A DNA stretch of 64,000 bases from Acutalibacteraceae bacterium (GTDB taxonomy: Bacteria > Bacillota > Clostridia > Oscillospirales > Acutalibacteraceae): contig JAZRNR010000163.1 in assembly GCA_045648305.1 (NCBI GenBank), positions 45,929 through 109,928 on the forward strand, in the 5' to 3' direction. Positions within the stretch are counted from its first letter, which is position 1. Every line of letters starts with the position of its first letter. Shown piece by piece: positions 45,001 to 63,609 of the stretch. The notes beneath the pieces were generated by a model. That model was not told where the DNA came from, did no database searches, and saw only the letters and a program-made list of their open reading frames with translations. The translations under genes were made by a program, and so were the position numbers.

Positions 45001-48000
45001 TAACAACAATGGTGTTGCATTCGGCTTGGTATATTGTATCAATGGCACATGGTACAACTCTTCGTCAAGATGGCTTGGTTCGACAAGCGGATGGGAGCGT
45101 TTCAGTCATACTGTGACATTGCCAAGCGGCAATATAACCAACTGCCATGTTTTCCTTGAACTTGTCAACGCTGAAGGCATTGTTCGCTTTGATAATGTTC
45201 AGGTTGAAAAAAGCGGCGGTTCTCGTAGCTATAATCTTGTTGAAAATAGTGATTTTTCAACAGGTACGGGCAGTGATGTGTATGGTTGGACAAGTTCTGA
45301 TATGCAGACCGGTGATGGTGTAAAATACGACGTAGGTGCAGGGCGTAATTGTTATATGATGATGGGTTCTGTTTCCAAAGCTAAATCTATATGCCAAAAA
45401 GTATATGTAAATGCAAACGCCGGAGATTCCCTTATAATAGGTGGTAAGGTAGCTGCATATGTAACAGATGGTACTAGCAATTCCAGAAAATTTGAAATAC
45501 GTGCTGCTTTATATAATGCTAATGGAACATGTATAAAGATTGTAACAGTTCCTTTTGATAAAAAAATAAATCAGGAGAGACAAGTAAAGGCTGCCTATGT
45601 ACCGGTCGAACAAGATTGTGAATACATAAACTTCTATTTTAATTATCATTATCAGGCTGATGCTTTCACCATTGATAATGCCTTTGTTTATGTAGACAAC
45701 TATGGTGAGCACTACTCCTACGATGAAACCAGCGGTTTGACAACAGCAGTTTATAACGACGAAGGAACTAAAACTGAATACATACACGGTGATAATACTG
45801 ATGTTGATGAGGTTACTCAGACTGTAAGCGGTGTTGAACAAACTGTTGCGACATATACCTATGATAACAATCATAATGTTTTAACCGCAACTAATAATGT
45901 CGGCAGTAAAATTGAATATAAATATAATACAACCGGTCAGGTAACTAAACAAACTACTATATCTGTAGATGAAAATGGCCGTGAAACAAGATCCTCTGAA
46001 ACCTTTTTGTATGGTCAGAATGGTAACTATTTATATGAACACGTTGACGCTAATGGTATTCGTACACGGTATGCTTATGATAATACTACCGCTGCAAATC
46101 AAATAAAGAAAGGTTTGCTGACAAGCGTAACAGATGCTTACGATTGTGTTACAACCTATACCTATGACCCAGACACAGATGAATTGCTTTCGGTAAGCGG
46201 CTCTGCAGACTCAACTGTTCCTGAACTTACATCGACAACAACTTTTTCCTACGAGGATTATTTACCGAAAACAATATCTCGAAACGGAACAACATATTCG
46301 TATGAATATGACTCTCAGAATCGTGTTACTTCAAGCAAAGTCGGCACCCAAACATTGGTAACCAATTCATATGACAACAGGCAAAGATTATCAGGTGTAG
46401 AATATGGAAATAACGACATATACACTCCGATTTATGACAATCGTGATCGCTTGGTAGGTGATTCCTGGAATAATACGCAAATTTCACAGTATTATTATAA
46501 CGACAATGATAGATTGTCAAAGGTTGTGGATAACGTTACAAATACATCTTACCAGTACGATTATGCTTTCTATGATTTGCCTCTCAGAGTTACCGGAAGC
46601 GATGGAACAGTGACAGCATATGATTATGATATGTCCGGTAATCTTGCTAGATTGACTTTTAGTGATGATAATGCAAATATATATTCAGGTAAGTACTATA
46701 CCAACGAAAAAGGTATGCCTGAAGATATTGTTATCGACACTCTCAATAACACATTGATTCACTATAACTATGACGATTTAGGCAGAGTTGAAAGTTATTC
46801 CTACGGTCCGGTTATAAGAACAATCACGTACAGGGATACTGTCGGAAGCACAAGAACAACTGCCAGAAATCAGATTAAAGAAATTGTTGACGAAACCAAA
46901 GACGGTGAAATTCTTCAGTCATATTCATTTGAATACGAAAGTACCGGTTATTTATATGAAATTACTGAAACTGTAGATAATCAAACAGTCAATTACTACT
47001 ATGATGAATTAGGCAGACTTGTAGATTGTACAGAATCTGCAGATAATTTCCATACGTTTACTTATGATGTAGACGGCAATATCACTTCGATCGGTTTCGG
47101 TTACGACCTGATTCACACATTCACTTACGGTAATGCGAATTGGAAAGACCAGTTAACTGCTTTCGATGGTAAGCCAATTACATACGATGATATCGGTAAC
47201 CCGCTTACTTACGACGGATATACTTATACTTGGGAACGAGGCACTAAGCTTGCCGGTATAACAGGAAACGGTAAAAACATCAGTTATGTATATGACTCGC
47301 AGGGCAATCGAGTTCAGAAAACAGTTAACGGAGTAACAACCAATTATCTTTATTCGGGTAATTTGCTTATGCGTCAGACTGACGGTACAAATACCATTGA
47401 TTTCCAGTATGATGTAAGCGGTGATGTGGTTGGGTTTATTTACAACGGAACACCGTATTACTATTTAAGAACATTGCTGAATGACGTTTCCGGTATTGTT
47501 GACGGAGAAGGCAATGTCGTTGCCGAATACAAATATGGCGCATACGGTAACATCATTTATGCTACAGGTGATTTAGCCGCAATTAATCCTATTCGTTACA
47601 GAGGCTATTATTATGATACCGAAACGAGTTGGTATTATCTTCAGTCAAGATATTACAACCCTGAATGGTGCAGATTTATCAGTCCTGACTGTCTCTTTAT
47701 CGCAGGTGATGCAATTAACGGAAGTAACATGTATGCTTATTGTAATAATAATCCAGTTAAATACATCGACACGTCCGGTGCAGCTTCTGAAACAAATAAG
47801 ATTGATCTTACACCCGTGGCAGATGGTATACGAATAATTAGCGGCAAACTATCTCAAACATTATCTGAACACGCAAGGGACCTTTTTGCCGGTACCACCG
47901 ACAGAATCCTGAACGAGTTAAAAAGTGTCTGTGAGTATAAGCTTCCTGGCCAAAAGGAAGGATTTGCTTACTCTTATCCGATGATATTTATTGGAACACC

Positions 48001-48823
48001 AATTTTATGTATCGGTTCGCTCACAGTATTACCTCTTCTTGATTTAATAATAAATCCTGACCAAAAATTCCCTGAAAGTCCTGAATTCAAATTGCCTACA
48101 GGAATTAGACACTTCACACCATGGAGTATGGAATTCTTAACAGGATATGCGACATATTTTCTTGGCTTTGAAAGTGACGGTGGAGGAAAAACCTATACAA
48201 CAAATCCGGATAATTTTATGTGGCAAAGTATGGTAGGTTATAATTGGTTTTATGATTACTTTTTCAGCTTGGGTGGACCAATAACAAAAATAGTTCTTCC
48301 CTTTGATGCTCCCGCGACAAGCCTGTTTCCTGATGCTTCTTATGCAGTATGGTGTTGGAAAGCGGACTATTGGAACTTAGGTGCTGGCGCTGAAATAGGA
48401 ATATATTGGCAACCAATAAAAGCTCTTGCTGAGCGTGGATTCTACCGTATTGACCAAGAAAACCTTCTTGTTGATGTCAATATGCAGGTTACTTATGATC
48501 ATTCAAAAGACGAGCTTTCTTCATACAATCACATAGAGGTTTTGCATGGTAACGGTGAACCTCATTCATCTCTCAAGCAAACAAGTTGGTGGATTACTAA
48601 TTTTACACCGCATATACAATTTGTGGATTTAGAAGCATTGAATGTATGTCAGGCTGTTAATTTTGCTGAAAGTGGCATTCATAGTAATTTGTATGAGGCT
48701 TTTTATGAAAAATATAGTAACGACGATACACATCCTGAATTATCCTGGTCTGTTTCCGAACCTCAGTGGGAATACTTAAATTTTGATAGTGAATATCCTT
48801 ATGAATTCTACATTCAGTACTAA
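42077..48823 (+). CDS. secreted WapA-like RHS/YD-repeat polymorphic toxin 2
   Basis: Signal peptide MQKFIKILSIVLVVVFCAQIIAPGATA. DNRLRE-like N-domain (LNLRRTYIKFTLPQLPEGSVV) and a CBM-like NHGFENGNDGW segment. The core ends at RYRGYYYDTETSWYYLQSRYYNPEWCRFISPD and NMYAYCNNNPVKYIDTSG. A distinct C-terminal domain of about 345 aa follows. Confidence 0.9.
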   Translation: MQKFIKILSIVLVVVFCAQIIAPGATAITATPFVGNNVAKSASKGITLPSLNDDLGKIEADSIVQNIDSSDNEIITPIMGEITELRTENAKHYRHEDGTYTAAVYPEPIHYMDSSGAWKDIDNTLTLKSVAGKATYTPATAALDIRIPQDFSNNQMLTIGKDGYTVGMRIKSSDNLETMSRESATASTTINSAKAVINNNFESLQAVNTSPVIDATASNNLKVEAENKQFMKLEKKVSAVNYNGVLDGANLQYVITPSRVKENIIVTKTQDSYVYQFELALDGLTPVAQENGSINLYENIDDEEPLFVIEAPYMYDATEETSFDVAMSLNGNTLTVTADAEWINDENREFPVVIDPTFSANTTTFYDATANQNTPDMNFPSFTTLYAGNGTLNLRRTYIKFTLPQLPEGSVVTESKLTLIQHDVTLGNSDRKLMAFDLTQKGSWTEGSITWNNQPVSNSPNAAVYDNAVKTLDYASFQTTNVDGQSYSFYITKAVKNWYEGSANNGIMITSDDESANSQAILYSSEHEDTTLHPSVTIRYNNNIGLEDYWSYETVDMGRAGALYANPYNGSVTYVHSDLNMTGNRLPINISHVFNNNTSDIYSSVYRGMLVGKKFHLSIQEVLVQENPRKYKHYDGDGTLHYYILKSNDKIEHEYDPTKTLTLNDSEYIISDAQGNKKYFNSAGQLYKLVDNNGNTQTFTFNGNLITKVTDPVGRSAILSYNSDGQLISITDPAGRVTTYTYRGLTEPAPLIKITYPNSDTTSLQYATDNLACIRSNNRTNCIITYHNSTYRGYRVSTIRQYDKTPQVVNLSTFRYVENNESGIASENTVVSRYFDADKTNFDGSNTYLFDTYGRVTSITNENHQTRYAVYGTSANYATFNKIQDSSELLTISTNTINNHGFENGNDGWSALQTASGNWGVVEDTASSSLGRKYMQLELTGNSGAFEVGQDFTATAGETYTVSVDINIPNALELNNNNGVAFGLVYCINGTWYNSSSRWLGSTSGWERFSHTVTLPSGNITNCHVFLELVNAEGIVRFDNVQVEKSGGSRSYNLVENSDFSTGTGSDVYGWTSSDMQTGDGVKYDVGAGRNCYMMMGSVSKAKSICQKVYVNANAGDSLIIGGKVAAYVTDGTSNSRKFEIRAALYNANGTCIKIVTVPFDKKINQERQVKAAYVPVEQDCEYINFYFNYHYQADAFTIDNAFVYVDNYGEHYSYDETSGLTTAVYNDEGTKTEYIHGDNTDVDEVTQTVSGVEQTVATYTYDNNHNVLTATNNVGSKIEYKYNTTGQVTKQTTISVDENGRETRSSETFLYGQNGNYLYEHVDANGIRTRYAYDNTTAANQIKKGLLTSVTDAYDCVTTYTYDPDTDELLSVSGSADSTVPELTSTTTFSYEDYLPKTISRNGTTYSYEYDSQNRVTSSKVGTQTLVTNSYDNRQRLSGVEYGNNDIYTPIYDNRDRLVGDSWNNTQISQYYYNDNDRLSKVVDNVTNTSYQYDYAFYDLPLRVTGSDGTVTAYDYDMSGNLARLTFSDDNANIYSGKYYTNEKGMPEDIVIDTLNNTLIHYNYDDLGRVESYSYGPVIRTITYRDTVGSTRTTARNQIKEIVDETKDGEILQSYSFEYESTGYLYEITETVDNQTVNYYYDELGRLVDCTESADNFHTFTYDVDGNITSIGFGYDLIHTFTYGNANWKDQLTAFDGKPITYDDIGNPLTYDGYTYTWERGTKLAGITGNGKNISYVYDSQGNRVQKTVNGVTTNYLYSGNLLMRQTDGTNTIDFQYDVSGDVVGFIYNGTPYYYLRTLLNDVSGIVDGEGNVVAEYKYGAYGNIIYATGDLAAINPIRYRGYYYDTETSWYYLQSRYYNPEWCRFISPDCLFIAGDAINGSNMYAYCNNNPVKYIDTSGAASETNKIDLTPVADGIRIISGKLSQTLSEHARDLFAGTTDRILNELKSVCEYKLPGQKEGFAYSYPMIFIGTPILCIGSLTVLPLLDLIINPDQKFPESPEFKLPTGIRHFTPWSMEFLTGYATYFLGFESDGGGKTYTTNPDNFMWQSMVGYNWFYDYFFSLGGPITKIVLPFDAPATSLFPDASYAVWCWKADYWNLGAGAEIGIYWQPIKALAERGFYRIDQENLLVDVNMQVTYDHSKDELSSYNHIEVLHGNGEPHSSLKQTSWWITNFTPHIQFVDLEALNVCQAVNFAESGIHSNLYEAFYEKYSNDDTHPELSWSVSEPQWEYLNFDSEYPYEFYIQY

Positions 48824-48976
48824 TTCACATTGTGATTTTAAAACTATCATCATAACCAACTATAAGCCAACGGTTTTAATTAGAAACAAACCTTAACTGG
48901 TTTAAATTATATGTTCATACACAGCCCTATTTCAATAGGGGGTGTATGAACGTCAATTAATTAGGAGGTTTTTATT

Positions 48977-49714
48977 ATGACAAGATTTCTCAGTATGCTT
49001 TTCTCGATTTTTATGTTCTTTTTTTCTTGGATGATACCTGCTGAGACACCTGGTGAGAAGCCTTTTGATCCGTACACTATTGAAATAAATGGTGTAACAT
49101 ATCAGAATGGATTTGTTCCTCAGGATATGCATTTTACAAAGGAATATGATGTTGACAAAGAAAACCCTTTGTATAGTAAGTTTGCTTTACCGGAAACTAT
49201 TAATTATTATCGATTTGAGGATAATTGGATTATCAGACATGAAAGCACAACATGGGCTACTAATGTTCAGGATGTTTTATATTGTCCGATTGGTGAATGG
49301 GAGGAGCTTCACGCGTATTACGCCGACCCCAACAACTATCATTATTATTTTAAAATTCAGCTTGATTTTGGAAACCTTACAACATACGAAATTCCGAATG
49401 TTGATATGGAAATGTTTGAAAGAATAATTCAGTTTGATGAAGATAATAGTTACGGAACAAACAGTTCAAACAAAGCGGAAACCATCAAACTTCCGATTAG
49501 TCATGCTGATAATGTCCGTTTTCAGAAAGAAAGTAAAGACGGATTATTTTATAACCATACTACGGAGTTTACCATATACGAAGGTCGTGTATATTATTAC
49601 AGATATTCCAATATGGCGACTGGTCAGGATGAAGTGGCCGTTCTTCCAAAAGAAATGGAAGACTATATTATTTCATTGCTCAAAACAACTGATTTAAATG
49701 AATATTTTCAATAA
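48977..49714 (+). CDS. candidate immunity protein A for RHS toxin 2
   Basis: N-terminal hydrophobic segment. Paralogous to the next ORF: INGVTYQNGF vs VNGIIYRNKF, and YYYRYSNM...VLPKEMEDYIISLL vs LVYRYYEV...EVPQDLSEYFVSVI. Confidence 0.55.
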   Translation: MTRFLSMLFSIFMFFFSWMIPAETPGEKPFDPYTIEINGVTYQNGFVPQDMHFTKEYDVDKENPLYSKFALPETINYYRFEDNWIIRHESTTWATNVQDVLYCPIGEWEELHAYYADPNNYHYYFKIQLDFGNLTTYEIPNVDMEMFERIIQFDEDNSYGTNSSNKAETIKLPISHADNVRFQKESKDGLFYNHTTEFTIYEGRVYYYRYSNMATGQDEVAVLPKEMEDYIISLLKTTDLNEYFQ

Positions 49715-49741
49715 TCTAAAATTAATAAAGGACAAAAGTAA

Positions 49742-50521
49742 GTGAAAAAAATTAAATATAGTTTAGTTTGCATAGTTACTTTACTTATGTTATCCTCTTG
49801 CACCATAAATCTTTCTGATTCTGATACAACCAATTCTACAACAACTGGTGCAAACGACTCGATTGTTGTGGAAGAGTATAACGAAGACACAGCAGATACA
49901 ACTGCAATTAAGGTTAACGGTATTATCTACCGTAACAAGTTTCAAGGTGATTTGATACTTCAAAACCTAAAGTACAGCGAAGAAGTTGTTCTCCAAAACA
50001 CTGTCGGGAAATTTCACCGCATTGAAGGAACAAAATATGATTTGCTTTACAATGCAAATTCCGAAGTTACAGGTGCATCAGAAAGTGTTTACTGCCGCAA
50101 TGACCAATGGCAGGAGCTTAAAAAGTACTATTCTAACTCGAACAATTTCACATATCAATGCATTGTTAAAGCTGATAACAATTCATCTGAAACCATCGAT
50201 GTGAACAAAATTGATATAGTCAAGCTTAATGAACTTTTAGTTTTCTGCAACGAGAACAAATATGAGCCAAACAGCTTCGCTGAAACGTCCAACAGAACAG
50301 CGTTTTTAACATCAAGTCTTGGTGACAAAACATATCGCTTCAAAATGTCCAGCAAAGACGGGTTATTTTCTGCAGATGCTAAATCATTCAGCATCGTCGA
50401 TAATACTCTTGTTTACAGGTATTATGAAGTGATGTCAGAAAACAAGACCTTGATTATTGAGGTTCCACAGGATTTGAGTGAATATTTTGTATCAGTAATC
50501 AGTAATTTGGATACTAAGTAA
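49742..50521 (+). CDS. candidate immunity protein B (lipoprotein paralogue)
   Basis: Lipobox LLMLSSC. Paralogous to 48977-49714. Confidence 0.55.
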   Translation: MKKIKYSLVCIVTLLMLSSCTINLSDSDTTNSTTTGANDSIVVEEYNEDTADTTAIKVNGIIYRNKFQGDLILQNLKYSEEVVLQNTVGKFHRIEGTKYDLLYNANSEVTGASESVYCRNDQWQELKKYYSNSNNFTYQCIVKADNNSSETIDVNKIDIVKLNELLVFCNENKYEPNSFAETSNRTAFLTSSLGDKTYRFKMSSKDGLFSADAKSFSIVDNTLVYRYYEVMSENKTLIIEVPQDLSEYFVSVISNLDTK

Positions 50522-51467: not shown

Positions 51468-52016
51468 TTGATTAGCGCAGAAAGGGCAAAAGAAATTGCT
51501 GATTTATACTATGATGACGTATATCATCTTTGTTATTCAAGGCTTAAAAAGGAAACGGATGCATCCGATGTTACTCAGGAGGTTTTCCTTTTCTTTCAGG
51601 AGAACTGTAACGAACTCGAAGATAGTTTTATCAAAGCGTGGCTTTATAAGGTTGCTGACAATAAAATAAAGGAAGAGTTCAGAAGCATAGCCAAGCGTGA
51701 GAAGGAGCTCATCTTCGGAACTGTATTCGGAACACAGACAAGTGCGGATATTCTCTACGAAATGGAAGAGGATAATAAGATAACCGACGAAGAGCTTGAA
51801 GAAAAGAAGCAAGGAATACTTTCTTCGCTGAGTGAAAAGGAGCTTGAACTCTTTGAAATGGTTTACACAAAGCGTATGGAATATGCTGAACTTGCAAAGG
51901 CACTTGATACTACTGAACATGCGGTAAGGTCGAGAGTTTACAGATTGAGACTGAAAATCAAAGATAAAGCAGCATTTGTATTTATGGCACTTTTACTTCT
52001 TTTTATGAAATTATAA
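51468..52016 (+). CDS. ECF-type RNA polymerase sigma factor
   Basis: Region 2-like DVTQEVFLFF and region 4-like MEYAELAKALDTTEHAVRSRVYRLRLKI. The start codon is TTG. Confidence 0.75.
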   Translation: MISAERAKEIADLYYDDVYHLCYSRLKKETDASDVTQEVFLFFQENCNELEDSFIKAWLYKVADNKIKEEFRSIAKREKELIFGTVFGTQTSADILYEMEEDNKITDEELEEKKQGILSSLSEKELELFEMVYTKRMEYAELAKALDTTEHAVRSRVYRLRLKIKDKAAFVFMALLLLFMKL

Positions 52017-52129
52017 AAATTTTTCAAAAAAATATAAATTTTTTGCGTGACAAATTGCATTTTCTTTCATATATATTTGAAGGAGGTTTTACATTTATTG
52101 AAGCATAAATACGGGAGGTGAACAAATCC

Positions 52130-52933
52130 ATGGAAAACGAACACAATAAGGCGACTGAGAATCAGACCTTAAAGGACAAGCTTATGGCAATCATTTTGCT
52201 TGAAACTGCAAAGGATTATAAGAAAATGGACAGTGACCTTGTGACGGAATGTGTTGATTTTCTTATGGAGCTGGAAGGAATACCAAGACTTACTAAAGAA
52301 GAAATTGAACAAAGAGTAAATGAAATACCGTTTAAAGGCAAGGTAATGGCTCTGAACTCTTATGCTAAGAAAAAGCTGAGAGCTAAGCGTATTGCTATCA
52401 TAGCCGCTGTGCTCGCGGTACTTATTGCACTCTTGGGTATATTTGCTATCAGTTCGGGCGGTGTTATTGAAGAATTTTTCAGAAAAGTGGGTGACTCCAT
52501 TAGCGAAATCCTTGATGACGGTCCGAAAGAACATAGCGGTATAACATTTTATAAAAATGACAAAACAATAACATATTCCTCACTAGAAGAATTCAAAGAA
52601 AGTGAAGGAGTAGATATTTTATATCCGACATGGTTGCCGGAAGATGAAAAGATTATTGAAATCAGTTATTTAGTTGAAGGGGAAACAGAAATATACTTGT
52701 TGTGTTCAAGTGAACCAGATCACAGTATTGCTATAGACGTTGATACTGAATTGGCCGATGACTTTAAGTTGAATTGTGAAGAAAAAGAAGTTTTAGATTA
52801 TTTGGTATATTACGAGAGCACACCTTTGTTTGTACAAGGCAACTTTGTCCATGATAATAACGTTTATCGTGTGAAAGCTGATACAGAAGATAATCTTTTC
52901 AGAATTATTGAAAATCTGAAGGAGATTAACTGA
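52130..52933 (+). CDS. putative anti-sigma factor (single TM)
   Basis: Follows the sigma gene. Central TM segment IAIIAAVLAVLIALLGIFAI. The start could be GTG 52118 or ATG 52130. Confidence 0.55.
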   Translation: MENEHNKATENQTLKDKLMAIILLETAKDYKKMDSDLVTECVDFLMELEGIPRLTKEEIEQRVNEIPFKGKVMALNSYAKKKLRAKRIAIIAAVLAVLIALLGIFAISSGGVIEEFFRKVGDSISEILDDGPKEHSGITFYKNDKTITYSSLEEFKESEGVDILYPTWLPEDEKIIEISYLVEGETEIYLLCSSEPDHSIAIDVDTELADDFKLNCEEKEVLDYLVYYESTPLFVQGNFVHDNNVYRVKADTEDNLFRIIENLKEIN

Positions 52934-53391: not shown

Positions 53392-53877
53392 ATGAAAGAA
53401 AAACTAATCGTCAGCTTTTTCGGCCATAGGTTCATTGACGATTCTCAGACAGTTGAACAAAAGCTCTATGAACTCCTCCGCATTATAATGAGCAGGGGAG
53501 ACAGAGAGGTCGAGTTCCTAGTCGGCAGAAATGGCGACTTTGACCTGATGACAGCGTCCGTTGTGCGAAGACTTAAAAAGGAATTAAACGCTGAAAATGT
53601 TTTTCTCACCCTCGTTCTGCCCTATGAAACCGCTGAATTGAGAAACAACGCTGAAGCTTTTGAAAACTATTACGATTCAATAGAAATCAGCGAAGCATCT
53701 GCCGATAAGAATTTTAAATATGCTATTACAGCAAGAAACAGAGATATGATCGACAGGTCAGATGTGGTTGTTGTTTACGTCAAAAATCAATCAGGCGGTG
53801 CGTATCAGTCTCTCAGATATGCAGAGAAAAATGATAAACGAATTATAATTTTATATAGCGAACAAAATGAAAACTAA
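53392..53877 (+). CDS. DUF1273/YpsA-like SLOG-family protein (second copy)
   Basis: N-terminal VSFFGHR motif and VVVVYVKNQSGGAY. Same architecture as 24099-24605. Confidence 0.55.
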   Translation: MKEKLIVSFFGHRFIDDSQTVEQKLYELLRIIMSRGDREVEFLVGRNGDFDLMTASVVRRLKKELNAENVFLTLVLPYETAELRNNAEAFENYYDSIEISEASADKNFKYAITARNRDMIDRSDVVVVYVKNQSGGAYQSLRYAEKNDKRIIILYSEQNEN

Positions 53878-54168: not shown

Positions 54169-54275
54169 TAGAGTGTATAGGTGGATTAAAATAAATAATG
54201 GGATTATATATTAGTATTTTAACATTACAAATTTCTATATTAGGTTTTATAGCACAACTAACCGGCTGAACAATA

Positions 54276-54668
54276 TTATTCTATTATTGCCTTTACTATG
54301 GATGATGTTTGCCACTTTACAATTTTAGTTGCATTGTTCTTTACAATGGTTGATGTTCTTTCAGATCCCCAAGGTTCTATGGCGATGATTTTTTTACCCA
54401 TTTCTTGTGCTAGTTCAATTTCAATGTTTATCCATTTGCTGTATGTAGAATAAACACCTGCTAATATTAGAATACAACTAGCATGTTTTATTTGATTTCG
54501 AATTGCTTCTTTTAATTGATAATCGTACTTTGCATTGTGTATAGGATCATCTTTAGGAACTGAATAGTTTTTATAAGAAAAATTATCAGCAGAATCTAAA
54601 AGATTAATCAATTTTTCATATGCATCGGAATAAGCCCATGAATGGCTAATAAAAAGATTATATGTCAT
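54276..54668 (-). CDS. TIR-like protein (DUF1863 / ThsB-like)
   Basis: N-terminal NLFISHSW. ILILAGVYSTYSKWINIEIELAQEMGKKIIAIEPWG carries a conserved Glu in the S.W...E context. Confidence 0.7.
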   Translation of the reverse strand: MTYNLFISHSWAYSDAYEKLINLLDSADNFSYKNYSVPKDDPIHNAKYDYQLKEAIRNQIKHASCILILAGVYSTYSKWINIEIELAQEMGKKIIAIEPWGSERTSTIVKNNATKIVKWQTSSIVKAIIE

Positions 54669-54676
54669 AATGTAAA

Positions 54677-55141
54677 TTACCTCAACTTTCGTTTTAATTC
54701 TTGATAAAAAGCATGTGTATCGATCTTTTTTGCACTTGATAATCCGTAATGTTCTAATATGTAGCTTTCTTCATAAGACTGTCTAACATCAACATACGTA
54801 GCAATATCATCTGAATTTTTCAATCTTGGCCAATAACTTAAGTAATCAGGTAGCTCTACATCTGATGACAAAAAGCTTGCCGTTGGCATATCTTTTTGAG
54901 CGGACATGCCTATTTCAAACGGAACCCACCAAGATTTCTTGGTAGACTCAGTCATTACGACAATTACGTCAGTGCAGGAGTTTAAATTTTTCTTGATGTG
55001 TTCAGTGAGTGCCTTACCGTCATTTGCTATTTCATTATCTAATACATCAAGGTATGACGAAACTCCGTTTTCATCTAATGTACGTTTCACCCATAATGCA
55101 CGTAGCTCGTCTTCTTTTTTATGAGAAATAAAAACCTTCAT
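54677..55141 (-). CDS. TIR-domain protein
   Basis: N-terminal MKVFISHKKEDE. VIVVMTESTKKSWWVPFEIGMS provides the candidate catalytic Glu. Its start overlaps the upstream stop as TAATG. Confidence 0.7.
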   Translation of the reverse strand: MKVFISHKKEDELRALWVKRTLDENGVSSYLDVLDNEIANDGKALTEHIKKNLNSCTDVIVVMTESTKKSWWVPFEIGMSAQKDMPTASFLSSDVELPDYLSYWPRLKNSDDIATYVDVRQSYEESYILEHYGLSSAKKIDTHAFYQELKRKLR

Positions 55142-55629
55142 TATGCTCCACCTCCTTTGCAATTACAAATTATTTCCAACAGTTTTTTACCAATAGGAAC
55201 AAGAATCGAAATTGAATATAGGACAATGAATAAAATCGGAATAATTTTTTCTATAGTAGTTAGTCTTATATATTTCTTATTGTTGTTCAGCTTTTCCCAT
55301 TCATATGAAAAGGGAGAGAGTGGTAATTGCTGTTCTATTTCGTTTATAATGTCATATTTTACTTTGCTAAGCCTGCTGTAACTATTAAGTGTGTATAACC
55401 ATAAAAAACAAATGCACATACCCGCCAACGACAACAGTAAACTTTTATATTCAATGGAAAAACTGATTACTGCTAATATGGCAACATTAATTGTTATAAA
55501 AATATTATTAGAATTGTTTCTTTTTTCAGAATTGCAATTTGCCATTTCGACACATGTTTTCCACTGTTCTAAAACAGTTGGCTTGTATTTTTCTCCATAT
55601 GTTGTTTTATCAGTTGAGTATAAAGTCAT
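55141..55629 (-). CDS. small multi-TM protein (SLATT/DUF4231-like candidate effector)
   Basis: First gene of the operon, with AGGAG RBS. Amphipathic N-helix LEQWKTCVEMANCNSEKR. TM segments IFITINVAILAVISFSI, LLLSLAGMCICFLWLYTL and IIPILFIVLYSISILVPIG. Confidence 0.55.
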   Translation of the reverse strand: MTLYSTDKTTYGEKYKPTVLEQWKTCVEMANCNSEKRNNSNNIFITINVAILAVISFSIEYKSLLLSLAGMCICFLWLYTLNSYSRLSKVKYDIINEIEQQLPLSPFSYEWEKLNNNKKYIRLTTIEKIIPILFIVLYSISILVPIGKKLLEIICNCKGGGA

Positions 55630-56067
55630 AAATATCTACTCCTATGTAATTTTTGATACTTCTTTATGATTTTAACTGGTTCTAATGCCCAATTTATTAG
55701 TACACTTTTAGATTATACAAAACTAAATTATGTATTCAATATTGTTTGCAAAAATGCTTCATTTTTTGACAAAAATGATCGATTTTTGTATGAGTTATAC
55801 ATTAAATTTCAATGTTGCTTTATAATGTACAATATTTACCAGGGAGTATAAATATTATGTTTTTGCGTCGTTTTTGAGTGTTTATTAAGTTGAAAAACCA
55901 TAAAAGCTTACTTTTTTGCAATATTTCAATGCATTTTTGCAAATTTAATGAATATTTGATCGAAAGAGTCTAGAATATGCATATAAACATATAGAAAAAT
56001 AGAAATTTATGGTTTAAGTGTTACTTTTCTTGATTTCATTTGTTTTAAATAATTGTAAGGATGTAGA

Positions 56068-56979
56068 TTACAATTTATTTCGATAATTATATTTATTTAA
56101 AACTTGTTTTTTTCGCTTGGTGGAGACCTCGGTATATATTTCAGTTGTTGCCACGCTACTATGACCAAGAATTTCTTGAACAGAACGTAAATCCGCTCCA
56201 TTTGAGAGAAGATTTGTCGCAAATGTGTGTCGCAAATAATGTGGTGTTGAATTTTCATTAATTCCACAGGCTCTTTTTGCCGAATTATATATGTATTCTA
56301 TACCATGAATACTCAGTTGCTCACCAAAACGGTTTACAAATATCTTGTCTGTATTTACCGGTCTGTTATTGCGGATTTTCAGCCATCGTGTAAGGTTGGT
56401 CCAAGTGTCGTTACAGGATATATAAATGAGCCTTTGTTTTCGACCTTTACCGTGGATAAGAATTGTCCGTTCAGAAAAAATCACATCACTAAGTGCGATG
56501 TTTGACGCCTCGGCGATTCTTATGCCGGTACTAATTAAAATATCAATTAATGCAAGGTTGCGGGAATTCTTCCATGAATCAAAAAATGTTGTTTTCTTTT
56601 CAGCACGGTTAGAAAGATAGGTTAGCAACTTTGATGTTTCTCTGACTGCCAACGTTTTTGGAAGCCTCCGCTCTTTCTTGTAGCGGAAATGATGATTCTG
56701 GTAATAATTGACATCAGTATAACCTTGCTCACAAAGAAAACTAAAAAACATTTTCAGCGTAATTAGCTTTCGGCAAATTGTGTTGTCTTTGAGGTCTCGC
56801 TCTTTGGATAACACCTGCACATATTTCAGGATAACCGTTTCATCAAGCTCATTGTCTTGTAGAAATACCTGAAAATCCTTTAAATCCGAACGATAAGCCG
56901 TTATCGTTTTATCGGATAAATTTTTTGTAGATTGGATGACTTGTATAAATTCATCACTTGCTGTTTTTATACTTCTCAT
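56068..56979 (-). CDS. tyrosine recombinase (XerC/XerD-like)
   Basis: SAM-like N-domain. Catalytic region GIRIAEA, HGKGRKQR, HYLRHTFATNLL and LGHSSVATTEIYTEV. Confidence 0.9.
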   Translation of the reverse strand: MRSIKTASDEFIQVIQSTKNLSDKTITAYRSDLKDFQVFLQDNELDETVILKYVQVLSKERDLKDNTICRKLITLKMFFSFLCEQGYTDVNYYQNHHFRYKKERRLPKTLAVRETSKLLTYLSNRAEKKTTFFDSWKNSRNLALIDILISTGIRIAEASNIALSDVIFSERTILIHGKGRKQRLIYISCNDTWTNLTRWLKIRNNRPVNTDKIFVNRFGEQLSIHGIEYIYNSAKRACGINENSTPHYLRHTFATNLLSNGADLRSVQEILGHSSVATTEIYTEVSTKRKKQVLNKYNYRNKL

Positions 56980-57126: not shown

Positions 57127-57924
57127 ATGTCAAATATTAAACACGAATATTTAATAGAAACAATTGAAGATTTATGTAGCACTATCGAAATAATTAAAAA
57201 TGAACTTTCCAAATACAATAGCGATAAAGTTAAATACAAAACTTTATGGTATAGGGGACAACAAAATTCCAGTTGGGAAATTGTGCCATCGATTCAAAGA
57301 AAAGATAATATGGTAAACGAACAAGTTTTTTCTCACTCGTTTTATCATAATGCAAGTCAAATTATGGCAACAAAAATACCCAAAGTAGCATATGATCAAT
57401 GGATTTCAATAATGCAACACTATGGCTTACCTACGCGTCTTTTGGATTGGTCATATTCACCTTTGGTGGCATTGTTTTTTGCTTTGTCCGATTCAGAAAA
57501 TACCACCAATGAGTATTCAAGCATTACAATTATTTGTCCTGAAATGATTAATTTCAAACAAGGTTTTGATCCATATATTTATCCCATGGATTCTGAATGT
57601 GCATTTAGTTTATTAAGACCAGCCTTCAGTACTCATTATGAAAGTTCGAATAAGATTTTAGCATGCTTTTCTACTAGTAATGATTTACGAATTTATGCAC
57701 AACGAGCAGCTTTCACAATTCATGATACAAATACAAAGTTATGTGATATCTGTGATGATCCCTGTATATTCACTATCTTAATTCCATCGGAAAGGAAAGC
57801 ATATTTTCAAAACATTTTAAAAAACTTTGAAATAAACGAGAAGTATATGTATCCAGATTTATCTCATATAGCAAAACAAGTGATTAAAAATCGAAGAGTT
57901 CAAAACCAGGAAGTGCCAATATGA
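57127..57924 (+). CDS. FRG-domain protein
   Basis: Motif LWYRGQQNSSWEIVPSIQR and HYGLPTRLLDWSYSPLVALFFAL. AGGAGAG RBS. Confidence 0.7.
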   Translation: MSNIKHEYLIETIEDLCSTIEIIKNELSKYNSDKVKYKTLWYRGQQNSSWEIVPSIQRKDNMVNEQVFSHSFYHNASQIMATKIPKVAYDQWISIMQHYGLPTRLLDWSYSPLVALFFALSDSENTTNEYSSITIICPEMINFKQGFDPYIYPMDSECAFSLLRPAFSTHYESSNKILACFSTSNDLRIYAQRAAFTIHDTNTKLCDICDDPCIFTILIPSERKAYFQNILKNFEINEKYMYPDLSHIAKQVIKNRRVQNQEVPI

Positions 57925-58478
57925 AAAACGACAAAATATTAGTTTTTTTTAGTAGACCAAATCCTTACATAGAGCAACAGCAAATTTTTATTGAAAAACT
58001 ACAAAGCATATTTGGTAAGTACGATTTAAAAACTGTCACCTTGGAAGCTGGTGAATATGATTTAACAGATTCAATTAATTATTTGAAAGGGATAATAAGG
58101 CAATGTTATGGCATCGTTATAGTAGGCTTCAAACAGATACATATAGAAAAAGGGATAAAGAAAAAAGGAGGAAAACCTAATGACTCTTTTTTTTATCCTG
58201 AAGAAATTGACATATCAGGTCAATCTCTTACTAGTCCGTTTTGTCATATTGAAGGAACTATTGGACTATTGTACGATTTGCCTTTATTAATCATAAACGA
58301 AGAAGGAATACGAGAAGAAGGAATTGTAAAAGGCGGTAGATTTAGTGTGAAAACAATTAATTTTGATTTATCTAATATAGATGATTTTTTCGCTGACAAC
58401 ACGTTTAATGAACAACTTTTAGTGTGGATAGGTAAAGTTACCGACTATTATTTGTTTTTAAATCTCAAAAAGGTTTAA
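57921..58478 (+). CDS. small Rossmann-like (TIR/nucleoside-deoxyribosyltransferase-like?) protein
   Basis: ATGA overlap with the FRG gene. Alternating strand-like blocks ILVFFSRP, GIVIVGF and PLLIINE. The fold call is tentative. Confidence 0.4.
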   Translation: MKNDKILVFFSRPNPYIEQQQIFIEKLQSIFGKYDLKTVTLEAGEYDLTDSINYLKGIIRQCYGIVIVGFKQIHIEKGIKKKGGKPNDSFFYPEEIDISGQSLTSPFCHIEGTIGLLYDLPLLIINEEGIREEGIVKGGRFSVKTINFDLSNIDDFFADNTFNEQLLVWIGKVTDYYLFLNLKKV

Positions 58479-59718
58479 GGATTTTTTGAATTTCGTCTAT
58501 ATCTTCTTTAAGTTTGGTTATGCCTTGTGTAATGACATTTTTCTGTAACACCGACATGTCGGTGTCATCTTTTAGTAATTGTGTCATTTTATCGTAGTCA
58601 ATATATTTGCCGTTTATAATAGATTTTAGATCGTGAAGATTATATCTATAATAAATTCTTTCATCATATTCCCCATTTTCGAGAGCAGTCATAGGTTTTT
58701 CCTGATATATCTTAGCAAAATGGATTGCAGTATAAAAATACTCTTTTATAACATTGGGATCTTCAGTTAATTCGTGTATTCTAAGAAGTGTTGCACAATA
58801 GTTTCTAGGGCAATATAAATTCGTTTTACAGAAAAAGGAACCGATTCTATAGTGTTTAAGTGCATTGTAATAATATTTTTCATCTCCGGTTAAATTGTAT
58901 ATCCTTAAGCTAATTGCTGCTATACGTCCAATCAAATATTCTGAATTGCAGTTTTCTACATCTATATTACTTTGCAAAAAGTTTAAACAATCGATTAAAC
59001 TTTTGTTACTCTTATTCTTTTCTGCAATTTTATATTTAGCTAGTGATAAAAGTAATAAATTTTCTTCTGATGGATCGTGTTCATATAATTCTGCAAATTG
59101 CAATTCTGCTTCTTCAAAATTATTTTCTTCTAGTGCTTTGTTCCCTTCCAAGTAATAACTGTACAATGACTTGTTTATAGAATTTGGAACGTTCTGGTTA
59201 TACATTTTTCTTTCAATTAGAGCTCTATGTATAGGATTATCTGGAAGATTATCAGTGCTAGTTATGGCGAAATCAATAAATTGATTTAATTTAGTCTTAG
59301 CTTCTGCTATAGCTTTTTTATTTAATGTTAACCCACTATGCTCATAGAAAATAATAGGAACATAATTAATATCAAAAAACTTAAAATCTTTTTCTTTATC
59401 TTTCGCACAAAGAATTATTGTAGATTTTGGTTTTAAAGCATGTCTTACACCTAATTCATATATTGCATTTGCATTCATAGTGCTAATATCTGCAATAACA
59501 ATATCCGAGTTGCTTAAACAGGTAATAAACTTGTAATCTATAGAAGTTGTTCCAATTATTTCATCACATCTAAATGCATTGAATTTATCATCATTATATA
59601 ATGAATATGGTCTCAAATTGTTTTCATTAATACAAGGCTTGATTATTTCATTATATGTTAAATCGAGATTAATGTTATTCTTAATTCCAAACCCCATAAT
59701 AACAAAACAACTTTTCAT
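58465..59718 (-). CDS. DUF4071-like Rossmannoid N-domain + TPR-repeat protein
   Basis: ATG 59718 lies 8 nt after GGGGAG. N-terminal CFVIMGFG....SDIVIADISTMNANAIYELGVRHALKPKSTIIL, with a helical-repeat C-terminal region. Its 3' end overlaps the convergent gene by 14 nt. Confidence 0.6.
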   Translation of the reverse strand: MKSCFVIMGFGIKNNINLDLTYNEIIKPCINENNLRPYSLYNDDKFNAFRCDEIIGTTSIDYKFITCLSNSDIVIADISTMNANAIYELGVRHALKPKSTIILCAKDKEKDFKFFDINYVPIIFYEHSGLTLNKKAIAEAKTKLNQFIDFAITSTDNLPDNPIHRALIERKMYNQNVPNSINKSLYSYYLEGNKALEENNFEEAELQFAELYEHDPSEENLLLLSLAKYKIAEKNKSNKSLIDCLNFLQSNIDVENCNSEYLIGRIAAISLRIYNLTGDEKYYYNALKHYRIGSFFCKTNLYCPRNYCATLLRIHELTEDPNVIKEYFYTAIHFAKIYQEKPMTALENGEYDERIYYRYNLHDLKSIINGKYIDYDKMTQLLKDDTDMSVLQKNVITQGITKLKEDIDEIQKILKPF

Positions 59719-59741
59719 ATTTAATATCTCCCCGAACATAA

Positions 59742-61634: not shown

Positions 61635-62213
61635 ATGCAGAATGAAAAAATCCAAAAAGTAAAATGGGGAGACATTTTTTATTGTGATTTAGGTAAAGCG
61701 AACGGTTCGGTACAGTTCGGATATCGACCTGTCGTTGTTGTTCAGGCAAACTCCTTGAACAAGTCCAGTCCTACAATCGTGGTAGCTGTAATTACATCTG
61801 TTCGGAAAAACCAATCTATGACAACACATATTCTTCTTGATGAGAATTGTGGTTTGAGTGAACCTTCGATGATTGTTTTAGAACAACTGCGAACAATAGA
61901 TAGAGTGGAAGGGCTCGGAAGATACATAGGTACAATTTCAGATGAAATTAAGAGAAACGAAATAAAGCAAGGTCTCAAACATTTGGTAGGAATTCCTCGA
62001 AATCCTAGAAGAGAACGATTTGGTCGAATAGCAACGTTATGTATTAATTGTCAACAAGAGTTAATGAAAAAACCTGACAATATGATAAGAAGAATTGACC
62101 CTTTGCAGAGAGAAAAAGGACTTTGCGAAAAGTGTCAAACCTATTATGGATATGACTATCTTATTACAAAAAAGTATAAACATGCGGAAAACCGGGAGGT
62201 GAAAAAGATTTGA
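61635..62213 (+). CDS. MazF/PemK-family toxin domain with C-terminal Cys-rich (zinc-ribbon-like) extension
   Basis: N-terminal KWGDIFYCDLGKANGSVQFGYRPVVVVQAN....PTIVVAVITS....IVLEQLRTIDR. The C-terminus carries CINCQ...CEKCQ. Confidence 0.7.
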   Translation: MQNEKIQKVKWGDIFYCDLGKANGSVQFGYRPVVVVQANSLNKSSPTIVVAVITSVRKNQSMTTHILLDENCGLSEPSMIVLEQLRTIDRVEGLGRYIGTISDEIKRNEIKQGLKHLVGIPRNPRRERFGRIATLCINCQQELMKKPDNMIRRIDPLQREKGLCEKCQTYYGYDYLITKKYKHAENREVKKI

Positions 62214-62509: not shown

Positions 62510-62694
62510 ATGATAGAAGAAAGCAAAAAATCTACTCGGTTAATGAAATACAAGATATTTTAGGTATTTGTAAAACTAGTGCATATGCCCTTGTTAAAAG
62601 AAAAGAGTTTTACAGTATAAAAATCGGTGATACATATAGGATTTCGAAAATTAGTTTTGATGAATGGTTAAATAACAGAAAAGGGGAGTGCTGA
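62510..62694 (+). pseudogene. excisionase-type HTH gene broken by an apparent 1-nt deletion in an A6 run
   Basis: GGAGG RBS and ATG 62510. The frame stops after 17 codons. The +2 frame from 62533 reads YSVNEIQDILGICKTSAYALVKRKEFYSIKIGDTYRISKISFDEWL to TGA 62692-62694. Confidence 0.65.
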
Positions 62695-62696
62695 TT

Positions 62697-63398: not shown

Positions 63399-63609
63399 AT
63401 TTGAATCTAAATCATTTTGTGGTAATGCGGCCTTTGAGAAAAAGAGTTACACAGTACCTGAAGTAATGAGAATCCTTGATACAACAAGACAGTCTGTTTA
63501 CAAACTAATAAAAAGCGGTTGTTTTCGGGCAGTAAAAGTAGAAAAAGGCTATCGAATTGTTAAGAAGAGCTTTGATGATTGGTTAAACGGTACGGAAGGG
63601 GTAGTATAA
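63379..63609 (+). CDS. excisionase-type HTH protein
   Basis: YTVPEVMRILDTTRQSVYKLIKSGCFRAVKVEKGYRIVKKSFDDWL. Confidence 0.7.
   Translation: MKDLSTKFESKSFCGNAAFEKKSYTVPEVMRILDTTRQSVYKLIKSGCFRAVKVEKGYRIVKKSFDDWLNGTEGVV

What the first reader, a model, noticed from the sequence alone, without database searches (positions are those of the whole stretch)
54276..55629. Translationally coupled operon: small multi-TM protein, TIR protein, TIR-like (ThsB-type) protein
Three reverse-strand genes are tightly coupled: a TAATG overlap, then an 8-nt gap containing GAGGTAA.

Both downstream proteins retain the Glu in the S.W...E context used by NAD-cleaving TIR domains. The first gene encodes only a 162-aa membrane protein with an amphipathic N-helix and three hydrophobic segments, reminiscent of SLATT/DUF4231-type pore effectors. 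It has no SIR2, SLOG or Macro sensor domain of the kind found in Thoeris ThsA.

A two-TIR signal generator coupled directly to a minimal membrane effector would be a Thoeris-like variant. As far as I know it has not been characterised experimentally. The operon sits in an AT-rich island next to further NAD- or nucleotide-related genes.
Basis: partly seen in the sequence, partly recalled or inferred. Interest (0 to 1): 0.7.

Follow-up and report, generated by a model that had tools for sequence, protein, structure and literature searches.

The report
Thoeris-like TIR operon, small membrane effector
This is an intact three-gene anti-phage cassette in which two TIR enzymes probably make a nucleotide alarm signal that opens a small membrane protein; a 2025 preprint already lists the type as predicted but untested, so this is a good example, not a new kind.

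Summary
Three intact, tightly packed minus-strand genes encode:
- a 162-aa three-TM protein (55629..55141);
- a 154-aa TIR (55141..54677);
- a 130-aa ThsB-type TIR (54668..54276).

Both TIRs keep the catalytic Glu (E76 and E83).

The membrane protein is not detectably SLATT. It belongs to Pfam PF24838 ("8xMP"). About 90% of the species-representative genomes sampled have a TIR gene directly beside it, and so do 6 of 7 distant bacterial and archaeal members. DNA similarity to other genomes stops at the cassette edges.

The "uncharacterised" claim needs qualifying. Yirmiya et al. (bioRxiv, Dec 2025) list "3TM" as a putative, untested Thoeris effector. One of their rows is exactly the TIR of a trio I recovered.

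Both TIRs are 56-65% identical to a consecutive TIR pair listed there under type IV (caspase) Thoeris. One lineage has a decayed 8xMP gene, an intact TIR pair and a caspase-like gene upstream.

I infer a cyclic-ADPR-isomer-gated (most likely N7-cADPR) membrane effector causing abortive infection. No function was tested.

Verdict: a real member of a catalogued but unverified Thoeris type. Moderate interest.

The parts
55141..55629 (-). g1: 162-aa three-TM protein of Pfam family PF24838 (8xMP). This is the predicted signal-gated membrane effector, the '3TM' class of Yirmiya et al. 2025.
   Evidence: - Pfam 8xMP: E=1.4e-31, 109.6 bits against a cut-off of 30.
- Hydrophobic segments at about 43-59, 63-82 and 128-148.
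- AF2 monomer model: helices 8-57, 64-99, 108-116 and 119-154, pLDDT 77.5.
- R37, E99 and E110 are invariant over 109 diverse homologues. N41, W77, Y84, K91, W111 and E127 are nearly invariant.
- TIR genes lie adjacent in most related loci.
54677..55141 (-). g2: 154-aa TIR protein with a conserved C-terminal extension of about 70 aa. It is an accessory second TIR, present in about half of the related cassettes.
   Evidence: - Pfam TIR_2 1e-10 and ThsB_TIR 3e-8; PADLOC ThsB models down to 8e-13.
- Candidate catalytic residue E76 in SWWVPFE. It is at least 95% conserved among 25 distinct sequences, query included, and aligns with the active-site Glu of reference TIRs.
- 56-58% identical to TIRs listed under type IV (caspase) Thoeris.
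- 29-33% identical to type VI TIRs.
54276..54668 (-). g3: 130-aa ThsB-type TIR. This is the core TIR of the cassette.
   Evidence: - Pfam ThsB_TIR 1.5e-18.
- Candidate catalytic residue E83 in SKWINIE; W79 and E83 are at least 95% conserved in 39 distinct sequences, query included.
- 78-79% identical to TIRs listed with a '3TM' partner in Yirmiya Table S1.
- 61% identical to the E. coli 328 type IV ThsB and 65% to IMG 2516114974.
- Present in both the three-gene and the two-gene versions of the cassette.
55712..55739 (-). Promoter-like site (TTGAAT-16-TATAAT) about 80 nt upstream of g1.
   Evidence: The consensus scan matches 10 of 12 positions. It is not statistically distinguishable from background in this AT-rich DNA: 11 sites were found against 15.4 expected. 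Its function is inferred only from its position.
54274..55667 (-). Extent of the mobile three-gene cassette, defined by DNA similarity to other genomes.
   Evidence: blastn of window 50-61 kb against all fetched loci finds similarity only within 54270-55667. L001 is 82% identical over 54274-55647 and L002 is 78% identical over 54277-55667. The flanks are unrelated.

Best explanation
This is a Thoeris-type abortive-infection cassette.

1. The two small TIR proteins are the sensors and signal generators. g3 is the core TIR and g2 is an accessory second one.
2. On phage infection they convert NAD+ into an ADP-ribose-derived second messenger. The most likely product is a base-cyclised cADPR isomer: N7-cADPR, as in type IV Thoeris, or canonical cADPR.
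3. The signal binds a conserved pocket on the cytoplasmic, membrane-proximal face of the homo-oligomeric 8xMP protein g1. The pocket would be formed by R37, N41, W77, Y84, K91, E99, E110, W111 and E127.
4. The bound effector then breaches or depolarises the membrane and stops phage replication.

**Shown here:** gene structure, domain identities, retention of the catalytic Glu, conserved effector-TIR linkage, cassette mobility, and sharing of TIR lineages with type IV systems.

**Inferred:** defence function, the identity of the signal, ligand gating, oligomeric state and membrane damage.
For: **1. Domains.** g1 is Pfam 8xMP, and g2 and g3 are TIR/ThsB. The Glu aligns with PsTIR's KWE Glu and with the RYE Glu of B. 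cereus ThsB. By residue counting, the PsTIR Glu corresponds to E79, the predicted active site whose E79Q mutant was tested.

**2. Linkage in 30 species-representative genomes.**
- 14 have g1-g2-g3 in the same order.
- 10 have g1-g3 only.
- 2 have two TIRs of other clades upstream.
- 1 has a 538-aa TIR fusion overlapping the start of g1.
- 3 are orphans.
- The 35 metagenome loci look the same.

**3. Distant members.** Of 7 members at about 35% identity, 6 have an adjacent TIR. One is an archaeal TIR-NB-ARC-WD40 protein. Their surroundings include type I R-M, PIN and Mrr genes.

**4. Mobility.** DNA similarity to other genomes ends at the cassette borders.

**5. Literature.**
- A '3TM' effector is listed as a putative Thoeris type.
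- Row ga0268263_100155011 is exactly the g3-type TIR of trio L048.
- Verified types V, VII and X show that a small membrane-only protein can be a Thoeris effector.

**6. Signal inference.**
- IMG genes 2516114973 and 2516114974 are consecutive. They are 58% identical to g2 and 65% identical to g3, and both are listed under 'Caspase - Type IV'.
- An archaeal 8xMP gene sits next to a TIR 67.5% identical to PsTIR, the TIR of the type IV system in which N7-cADPR signalling was characterised.
- In L059/L060 the 8xMP gene is a pseudogene with in-frame stops and R37 changed to C. g2, g3 and an upstream caspase-like gene are intact.

**7. Binding site.** All family-wide invariant residues lie at the predicted cytoplasmic ends of the TM helices or in the cytoplasmic helix and loop.
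Against: - There are no functional data for any 8xMP-TIR system. The source preprint did not test the 3TM class.
- That preprint warns that in unverified types the TIR could instead be an NAD+-depleting effector.
- The g3 TIR cluster (2734565194) also serves type VII and VIII systems, which use canonical cADPR. TIR clade therefore does not fix the signal.
- The close plasmid relatives of a type VII TIR that I inspected pair with caspases, or have one nearby, so partners are swapped freely.
- The oligomeric state rests only on the Pfam and NCBI family names. No solved structure was found by sequence or by fold.
- The monomer model is of medium confidence (pLDDT 77.5).
- PADLOC has no model for g1.
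- The role of the second TIR is unknown.
Confidence: 0.72

Rival explanations
1. Reversed roles. The TIR proteins are the toxic effectors and deplete NAD+. The 8xMP membrane protein is the sensor, anchor or regulator, for example sensing membrane perturbation by phage.
For: - Yirmiya et al. state this caveat explicitly for their unverified putative types.
- TIR NADase effectors exist in CBASS, Pycsar, pAgo and Avs systems.
- Both TIRs keep the catalytic Glu, which fits either role.
Against: - g2 and g3 are 56-65% identical to TIRs of type IV systems, where the TIR is the signal generator.
- The 8xMP gene pairs with at least four different TIR lineages and with a TIR-STAND fusion that carries its own sensor domain. 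That pattern is typical of an interchangeable effector, not of a dedicated sensor.
- In L059/L060 the 8xMP gene has decayed while the TIR pair persists next to a caspase-like effector.
Confidence: 0.12
2. The cassette is a selfish addiction or toxin-immunity module that stabilises the mobile island, not a phage-defence system.
For: - It sits beside a tyrosine recombinase, and a MazF-like toxin and an RHS toxin lie in the same region.
- The cassette moves as a unit between unrelated contexts.
- Integrases are near it in 9 of the fetched loci.
Against: - Every experimentally studied bacterial operon made of a ThsB-type TIR plus an effector that I read about is an anti-phage system.
- Related loci lie among R-M and other defence genes.
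- No antitoxin-like partner is apparent.
- Mobility and island location are equally typical of defence systems.
Confidence: 0.08
3. g1 is a housekeeping membrane protein. NCBI names the family 'RipA family octameric membrane protein', which may refer to Francisella RipA. On this reading, its adjacency to the TIR genes is incidental.
For: - One family member carries that NCBI name.
- Francisella RipA is a small inner-membrane protein linked to LpxA.
- Three Ruminococcus-like loci carry an orphan copy with no TIR.
Against: - TIR adjacency holds in 27 of 30 species-representative genomes and in 6 of 7 distant members across bacteria and archaea.
- The hosts here are Gram-positive Clostridia, which have no lipid A pathway (established knowledge).
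- I could not verify that Francisella RipA belongs to this family at all.
Confidence: 0.03

Closest known systems
Putative '3TM' Thoeris configuration of Yirmiya et al. 2025 (bioRxiv 10.64898/2025.12.03.692087; Fig. 1C, Table S1)
   Same: - The TIR cluster is the same: g3 is 78-79% identical to listed '3TM'-partnered TIRs.
- The effector family is the same. Their row ga0268263_100155011 is exactly the TIR of my trio locus L048, whose first gene is an 8xMP protein.
   Different: - The preprint gives only the label '3TM'. It reports no family assignment, no experiment and no signal for this class.
- In the rows I read, only g3-type TIRs are listed under '3TM' (the stored table is truncated). The recurrent second TIR (g2) is not described.
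Type IV Thoeris (TIR + caspase-like protease; signal N7-cADPR; Rousset et al., bioRxiv 10.1101/2024.10.24.620036)
   Same: - The TIR lineages are shared. g3 is 61% identical to the E. coli 328 ThsB. g2 and g3 are 58% and 65% identical to the consecutive genes 2516114973 and 2516114974.
- PsTIR-like TIRs also pair with 8xMP proteins, at up to 67.5% identity.
   Different: The effector here is a 162-aa membrane protein, not an arginine-specific caspase-like protease. There is no caspase gene in the window's operon. Use of the same signal is an inference.
Type V Thoeris (ThsF, DUF2270/PF10028; three TM helices; signal 3'cADPR)
   Same: Both have a small effector with three membrane-spanning helices. 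ThsF is modelled as a ring-shaped homo-oligomer with ligand pockets between protomers. That is the closest analogue for how g1 probably works.
   Different: None of 23 members of the g1 family hits PF10028, even at E<=10. The partner TIR clades differ.
Type VII Thoeris (ThsH, SLATT/DUF4231; signal canonical cADPR)
   Same: Both have a membrane-only effector with an N-terminal cytoplasmic helix followed by a TM hairpin. TIR cluster 2734565194 is shared.
   Different: There is no detectable homology. hhalign of 8xMP (109 sequences) against a ThsH-like DUF4231/SLATT_1 family (41 sequences) gives 11.5% probability. There are no SLATT hits in Pfam or NCBIfam. g1 also has a third TM helix.
Type I and type II Thoeris (ThsA SIR2-SLOG; Macro-TM effector)
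   Same: The logic is the same: ThsB-type TIR plus an effector. Multiple ThsB genes in one system are common.
   Different: g1 has no SIR2, SLOG or Macro domain.

Membership tests
Thoeris (TIR-signalling anti-phage systems, broad sense) | A ThsB-type TIR protein that retains the catalytic glutamate | tested here: met
   Pfam and PADLOC give ThsB/TIR hits. E76 of g2 and E83 of g3 fall in the only invariant column apart from F6 when aligned with PsTIR, BcThsB and others. They are conserved across homologues.
Thoeris (TIR-signalling anti-phage systems, broad sense) | A non-TIR effector gene in the same operon, with conserved linkage | tested here: met
   A TIR is adjacent in 27 of 30 species-representative genome loci. 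The 35 metagenome loci show the same pattern (several contigs are truncated), and 6 of 7 distant members do too. The gene junctions are a 1-nt overlap and an 8-nt gap.
Thoeris (TIR-signalling anti-phage systems, broad sense) | Infection-triggered production of an ADPR-derived signal that activates the effector, and phage protection | not testable with these tools
   This needs plaque assays, LC-MS of lysates and effector activation assays.
Thoeris (TIR-signalling anti-phage systems, broad sense) | Location in defence or mobile islands | tested here: met
   - In the window: AT-rich island, tyrosine recombinase, FRG-domain gene (PADLOC PDC-S15, 1e-40), MazF-like toxin and RHS toxin.
- In other loci: type I R-M, PIN, DUF4411 and Mrr genes.
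Putative '3TM' Thoeris type (Yirmiya et al. 2025) | A TIR of cluster 2734565194 or 2556961318 next to a three-TM protein | tested here: met
   g3 is 78-79% identical to listed TIRs. Three hydrophobic segments are present. A Table S1 TIR matches trio locus L048 exactly.
Pfam PF24838 (8xMP, octameric membrane protein family) | Score above the Pfam gathering threshold | tested here: met
   109.6 bits against a cut-off of 30, covering profile positions 1-132 of 136. All 23 aligned homologues match.
Pfam PF24838 (8xMP, octameric membrane protein family) | Homo-octameric assembly | not testable with these tools
   Only monomer prediction is available. No solved relative was found by sequence or by Foldseek.
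SLATT / DUF4231 effectors (type VII Thoeris ThsH; CBASS 2TM effectors) | Detectable homology to SLATT or DUF4231 models | tested here: not met
   - No SLATT or DUF4231 hit for any of 23 members at E<=10 in Pfam or NCBIfam.
- hhalign against a verified DUF4231/SLATT_1 family gives 11.5% probability.
- One member carries the submitter's name 'SLATT-5', which I could not reproduce.
- Only the SLATT_1/DUF4231 subfamily was tested profile against profile.
DUF2270 (ThsF, type V Thoeris) | Match to PF10028 | tested here: not met
   No PF10028 hit among 23 members at E<=10. No profile-profile test was done because I could not obtain a DUF2270 alignment.
Type IV Thoeris | A caspase-like protease effector next to the TIR | tested here: not met
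   The window's operon has no caspase-like gene. Only the TIR lineages are shared.
Type I / type II Thoeris | A SIR2-SLOG (ThsA) or Macro-TM effector | tested here: not met
   Pfam finds none of these domains in g1.

The most novel reading that the evidence does not exclude
8xMP proteins may be a large, unstudied family of ligand-gated oligomeric membrane effectors: 3,306 clusters at 50% identity, in bacteria and archaea. They would be opened by N7-cADPR or a related cADPR isomer and be interchangeable with the type IV caspase effector behind the same TIR pair. That would make this cassette a distinct, still unnumbered Thoeris type. If NCBI's 'RipA family' name is accurate, the Francisella virulence factor RipA would be a domesticated relative of an immune effector.
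Probability: 0.3. Interest if true: 0.6.

Novelty: new member of a known kind. Interest (0 to 1): 0.4.

Why it matters
**What is already known.** Thoeris systems with membrane-only effectors have been verified experimentally (types V, VII and X). The TIR + '3TM' arrangement is already catalogued as a prediction. This locus therefore adds an example, not a new principle.

**What this analysis adds for an experimenter.**
- The anonymous '3TM' label corresponds to a defined Pfam family (PF24838) of more than 3,000 clusters at 50% identity.
- A specific, testable signal hypothesis follows: N7-cADPR, or failing that canonical cADPR. It rests on three TIR lineages being shared with type IV Thoeris and on a natural case of effector replacement.
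- There is a short list of invariant residues to mutate: R37, E99, E110, K91, W77 and W111.
- A recurrent two-TIR architecture is flagged whose purpose is unknown.

**If confirmed.** It would add a Thoeris type. It would also show that one TIR signal can drive either a protease or a membrane effector.

Tried and rejected
- **SLATT or DUF4231 membership of g1: rejected.** There are no Pfam or NCBIfam hits, and hhalign gives 11.5% and 1.5%.
- **DUF2270 relationship: not settled.** Pfam shows no hit. I tried to fetch a genuine ThsF through a type V-like TIR on plasmids. The neighbour I found (L082, 135 aa) has no Pfam family and no similarity to 8xMP, so no proper profile-profile test was made.
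- **A solved structure for the family: none found.** Profile searches of PDB sequences returned one meaningless hit at E=0.57 or nothing. Foldseek of the AF2 model against PDB found nothing at E<=0.001.
- **Origin of the names '8xMP' and 'RipA family octameric membrane protein': not traced.** Five literature searches found no relevant paper. Two further searches on RipA did no better, and most 'RipA' hits are RIPA buffer. The link to Francisella RipA stays an unverified lead.
- **PADLOC and PHROGs models for g1: none**.
- **Fusion proteins.** The longer family members (about 300 aa) contain only the 8xMP domain according to Pfam.
- **Intrinsic terminator after g3: none found**.
- **The 161-aa SLOG-like neighbour as part of the system: rejected.** It is convergently oriented, and a homologue turned up near the cassette in only one locus from another source (L031), apart from contigs sharing this window's own gene order.
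Full report
**1. The observation**

- g1 runs 55629..55141 (162 aa).
- g2 starts at the ATG at 55141-55139 and ends at 54677 (154 aa).
- g3 runs 54668..54276 (130 aa).

The g1 stop (TAA, 55143-55141) shares its last base with the g2 start, which gives TAATG. The g2 stop (54679-54677) is followed by an 8-nt gap (TTTACATT) before the g3 ATG.

One detail is off. GAGGTAA (54683-54677) is the end of g2 including its stop codon. It precedes the gap; it is not inside it.

Each gene has a Shine-Dalgarno-like sequence at a sensible distance. A promoter-like site at 55739-55712 lies about 80 nt upstream of g1, but such matches are no more frequent here than in shuffled sequence.

Seven metagenome contigs carry the identical g1 protein in a matching local gene order. 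Independent gene calls there give the same 162/154/130-aa products on three of the four contigs shown; on the fourth the last gene is called at 78 aa.

The region is AT-rich: GC is 0.28-0.32 at 54-56 kb, against about 0.38-0.42 over much of the window.

**2. What the genes are**

g1 matches Pfam PF24838, 'Octameric membrane protein family (8xMP)', at E=1.4e-31 and nothing else of note. g2 matches TIR_2 (1e-10) and ThsB_TIR (3e-8). g3 matches ThsB_TIR (1.5e-18). PADLOC recognises both TIRs as ThsB-like but has no model for g1.

I aligned both TIRs with six reference TIRs from verified or listed Thoeris systems, among them E. coli 328, Pseudomonas sp. 1-7 (PsTIR) and B. cereus MSX-D12. Apart from F6, the only invariant column is the Glu: E83 in g3 and E76 in g2. 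By residue counting it corresponds to E79 of PsTIR, the predicted active site whose E79Q mutant was tested. Both residues are at least 95% conserved among the homologues I collected.

g1 has three hydrophobic segments at about 43-59, 63-82 and 128-148. An AF2 monomer model (pLDDT 77.5) shows four helices:
- a long N-terminal helix running into TM1 (residues 8-57);
- TM2 continuing into a cytoplasmic helix (64-99);
- a short helix (108-116);
- TM3 (119-154).

**3. Is the linkage real?**

Yes. The evidence comes from four sources.

*Species-representative genomes.* A scan returned 30 loci, mostly Clostridia. Their gene content was worked out.
- 14 have g1-g2-g3 in the same order.
- 10 have g1 followed by a g3-type TIR only.
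- 2 (L010, L015) have two TIRs of other clades immediately upstream.
- 1 (L027) has a 538-aa TIR fusion overlapping the start of g1.
- 3 closely related Ruminococcus-like loci have an orphan g1.

*Metagenomes.* The 35 metagenome loci show the same pattern.

*The wider family.* The family has 3,306 clusters at 50% identity with E<=1e-3, nearly all of them stand-alone proteins of 140-200 aa. I sampled 7 members at about 35% identity from other phyla and from archaea. Six have a TIR gene adjacent. One of these is a TIR-NB-ARC-WD40 protein in a Halobacteriota MAG. The surroundings include type I R-M, PIN, DUF4411 and Mrr genes.

*Cassette borders.* DNA similarity between the window and every other locus is confined to 54270-55667, which is the cassette itself. 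It therefore moves as a unit.

**4. Is g1 a SLATT protein?**

I found no evidence for that.
- No member of a 23-sequence alignment hits any SLATT, DUF4231 or DUF2270 model in Pfam or NCBIfam, even at E<=10.
- I recovered a genuine type VII-like effector (L077 2056-2493; DUF4231 4e-23, SLATT_1 1e-12) next to a type VII-like TIR. I built a 41-sequence alignment of that family and compared it with a 109-sequence 8xMP alignment.
- hhalign gives 11.5% probability over 19 transmembrane columns.

The resemblance is one of architecture: an N-terminal cytoplasmic helix followed by a TM hairpin. One database record calls a family member 'SLATT-5 domain-containing' and another 'RipA family octameric membrane protein'. 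I could reproduce neither name. No solved structure turned up by sequence or by fold.

**5. What the literature already says**

Yirmiya et al. (bioRxiv 10.64898/2025.12.03.692087, Dec 2025) scanned about 600 million proteins and annotated 29 putative Thoeris types. They verified types V-XI. Three of these have membrane-only effectors: type V (DUF2270, three TM helices, 3'cADPR), type VII (SLATT, canonical cADPR) and type X (ion channel).

Their Table S1 holds about 100 rows labelled '3TM', a putative effector they did not test.
- g3 is 78-79% identical to TIRs in those rows.
- Row ga0268263_100155011 is residue for residue the g3-type TIR of my locus L048 (contig Ga0268263_1001550). That locus is an 8xMP-g2-g3 trio.

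Their '3TM' class is therefore the 8xMP family, at least in that case, and this window holds a member of a catalogued but uncharacterised type. The authors caution that in unverified types the TIR might be an NAD+-depleting effector and not a signal generator.

**6. Which signal?**

This section is inference.
- Both TIRs have their closest characterised relatives in type IV Thoeris (caspase-like effector, N7-cADPR). g3 is 61% identical to the E. coli 328 ThsB.
- IMG genes 2516114973 and 2516114974 are consecutive genes, both listed under 'Caspase - Type IV'. They are 58% identical to g2 and 65% identical to g3. The same TIR pair therefore drives a caspase effector elsewhere.
- The other type IV TIR lineage also pairs with 8xMP. 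PsTIR belongs to the type IV system in which N7-cADPR signalling was characterised. TIRs of this lineage sit next to 8xMP genes at 67.5% identity in a Thorarchaeota MAG and at 43-44% in L010 and L015.
- In L059 and L060 the order is XRE regulator, caspase-like gene (322 aa), a 274-aa unknown gene, an 8xMP pseudogene, then intact g2 and g3. The pseudogene has in-frame stops and the invariant R37 changed to C. This looks like one effector replacing the other behind the same TIR pair.

Against a firm call:
- TIR cluster 2734565194 also serves types VII and VIII, which use canonical cADPR.
- The close plasmid relatives of a type VII TIR that I inspected pair with caspases or have one nearby.

I rate N7-cADPR as the most likely signal, canonical cADPR second.

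**7. How it probably works**

Over 109 diverse homologues, R37, E99 and E110 are invariant. N41, G70, W77, Y84, K91, L102, W111, E127 and P131 are at least 90% conserved.

In the model, most of these residues, and all the charged and aromatic ones, lie at the cytoplasmic ends of the TM helices or in the cytoplasmic helix and loop. That fits a conserved ligand pocket or protomer interface next to the membrane. It parallels the inter-protomer pockets modelled for ThsF and ThsH.

The best-supported scheme has three steps. The TIRs sense infection and make the signal. The signal binds oligomeric g1. g1 then compromises the membrane and infection aborts.

g2 is present in about half of the cassettes and has a conserved C-terminal extension of about 70 aa. 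It may widen the range of phages sensed, as multiple ThsB genes are thought to do in type I systems. That last point is from my own knowledge and was not tested here.

**8. Rivals**

- *TIRs as NADase effectors with g1 as the sensor.* This is possible. It fits poorly with the way g1 is exchanged among TIR lineages, and with the pseudogene case in L059/L060.
- *A selfish addiction module.* The data do not exclude it, but no precedent for this gene pair turned up in the papers I read.
- *Incidental adjacency to a housekeeping membrane protein.* The linkage data exclude it.

**9. Verdict**

The locus is a new member of a known, predicted but unverified kind. Interest is moderate. The remaining open questions are the signal, the effector mechanism, and the role of the second TIR.

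Noticed in passing
window 57127-58478 (+); L012 6293-6772; L048 5366-5860: An FRG-domain gene (Pfam FRG 6e-26; PADLOC candidate system PDC-S15, 1e-40) overlaps by ATGA a 185-aa gene with no family hit. Homologues of the 185-aa protein (E=8e-12 to L048) lie directly downstream of the 8xMP-TIR cassette in two other loci, so it may be an occasional accessory gene.
   Followed up: partly
window 58465-59739 (-): A 424-aa protein whose N-terminal domain of about 180 aa matches PHROG families of unknown function (3.7e-16) and, weakly, a PADLOC 'TIR effector' model (0.006). The C-terminal half shows one weak TPR-repeat hit (NCBIfam, E=0.004). The layout recalls the type VIII Thoeris effector ThsI (nucleotide hydrolase plus TPR). 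No adjacent TIR gene was identified, and homology was not tested.
   Followed up: partly
window 53392-53877 (+): A 161-aa protein, convergent with the cassette, with marginal hits to nucleoside 2-deoxyribosyltransferase, DprA and ShosA (SLOG-like fold) and to phrog_289 (1.4e-10). It accompanies the cassette in contigs sharing this window's gene order. Among loci from other sources, a homologue turned up only in L031.
   Followed up: partly
L059 and L060, about 1900-5330: Gene order: caspase-like gene, a 274-aa unknown gene, a decayed 8xMP pseudogene (in-frame stops, R37 changed to C), then intact g2 and g3 TIRs. This looks like a natural case of one Thoeris effector replacing another.
   Followed up: yes
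L073 314-3462: One distant 8xMP gene has no TIR neighbour. Its start overlaps the end of a radical-SAM gene, which follows a 402-aa unknown gene. This could be a different signal generator for the same effector family.
   Followed up: no
window 42077-50521 (+): A 2,248-aa protein with the repetitive sequence typical of RHS/YD-repeat toxins (judged from the sequence, not scanned against Pfam). It is followed by two paralogous small genes for putative secreted or lipoproteins, which may be immunity or cargo genes.
   Followed up: no
window 61635-62213 (+): A MazF/PemK-like growth inhibitor (phrog_1936, 1.5e-21) with a C-terminal Cys-rich extension. Together with the tyrosine recombinase at 56068-56979, it suggests the whole 54-64 kb stretch is a mobile or conflict island; the ORFs downstream of it (62688-63609) were not scanned.
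   Followed up: no
window 51468-52933 (+); L019 4591-6371; L022 5552-7332: In the window, a sigma-70-family factor plus a putative anti-sigma membrane protein lie about 1.3 kb from the cassette. A pair that looks similar directly follows the orphan 8xMP genes in L019 and L022. Homology between the pairs was not detected at E<=1e-4.
   Followed up: partly
protein P0270 (locus L074) and P0099 (locus L012): Public records name 8xMP family members 'RipA family octameric membrane protein' and 'SLATT-5 domain-containing protein'. Neither name could be traced to a model or a paper here. If Francisella RipA truly belongs to the family, a known virulence factor would be related to an immune effector.
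   Followed up: partly
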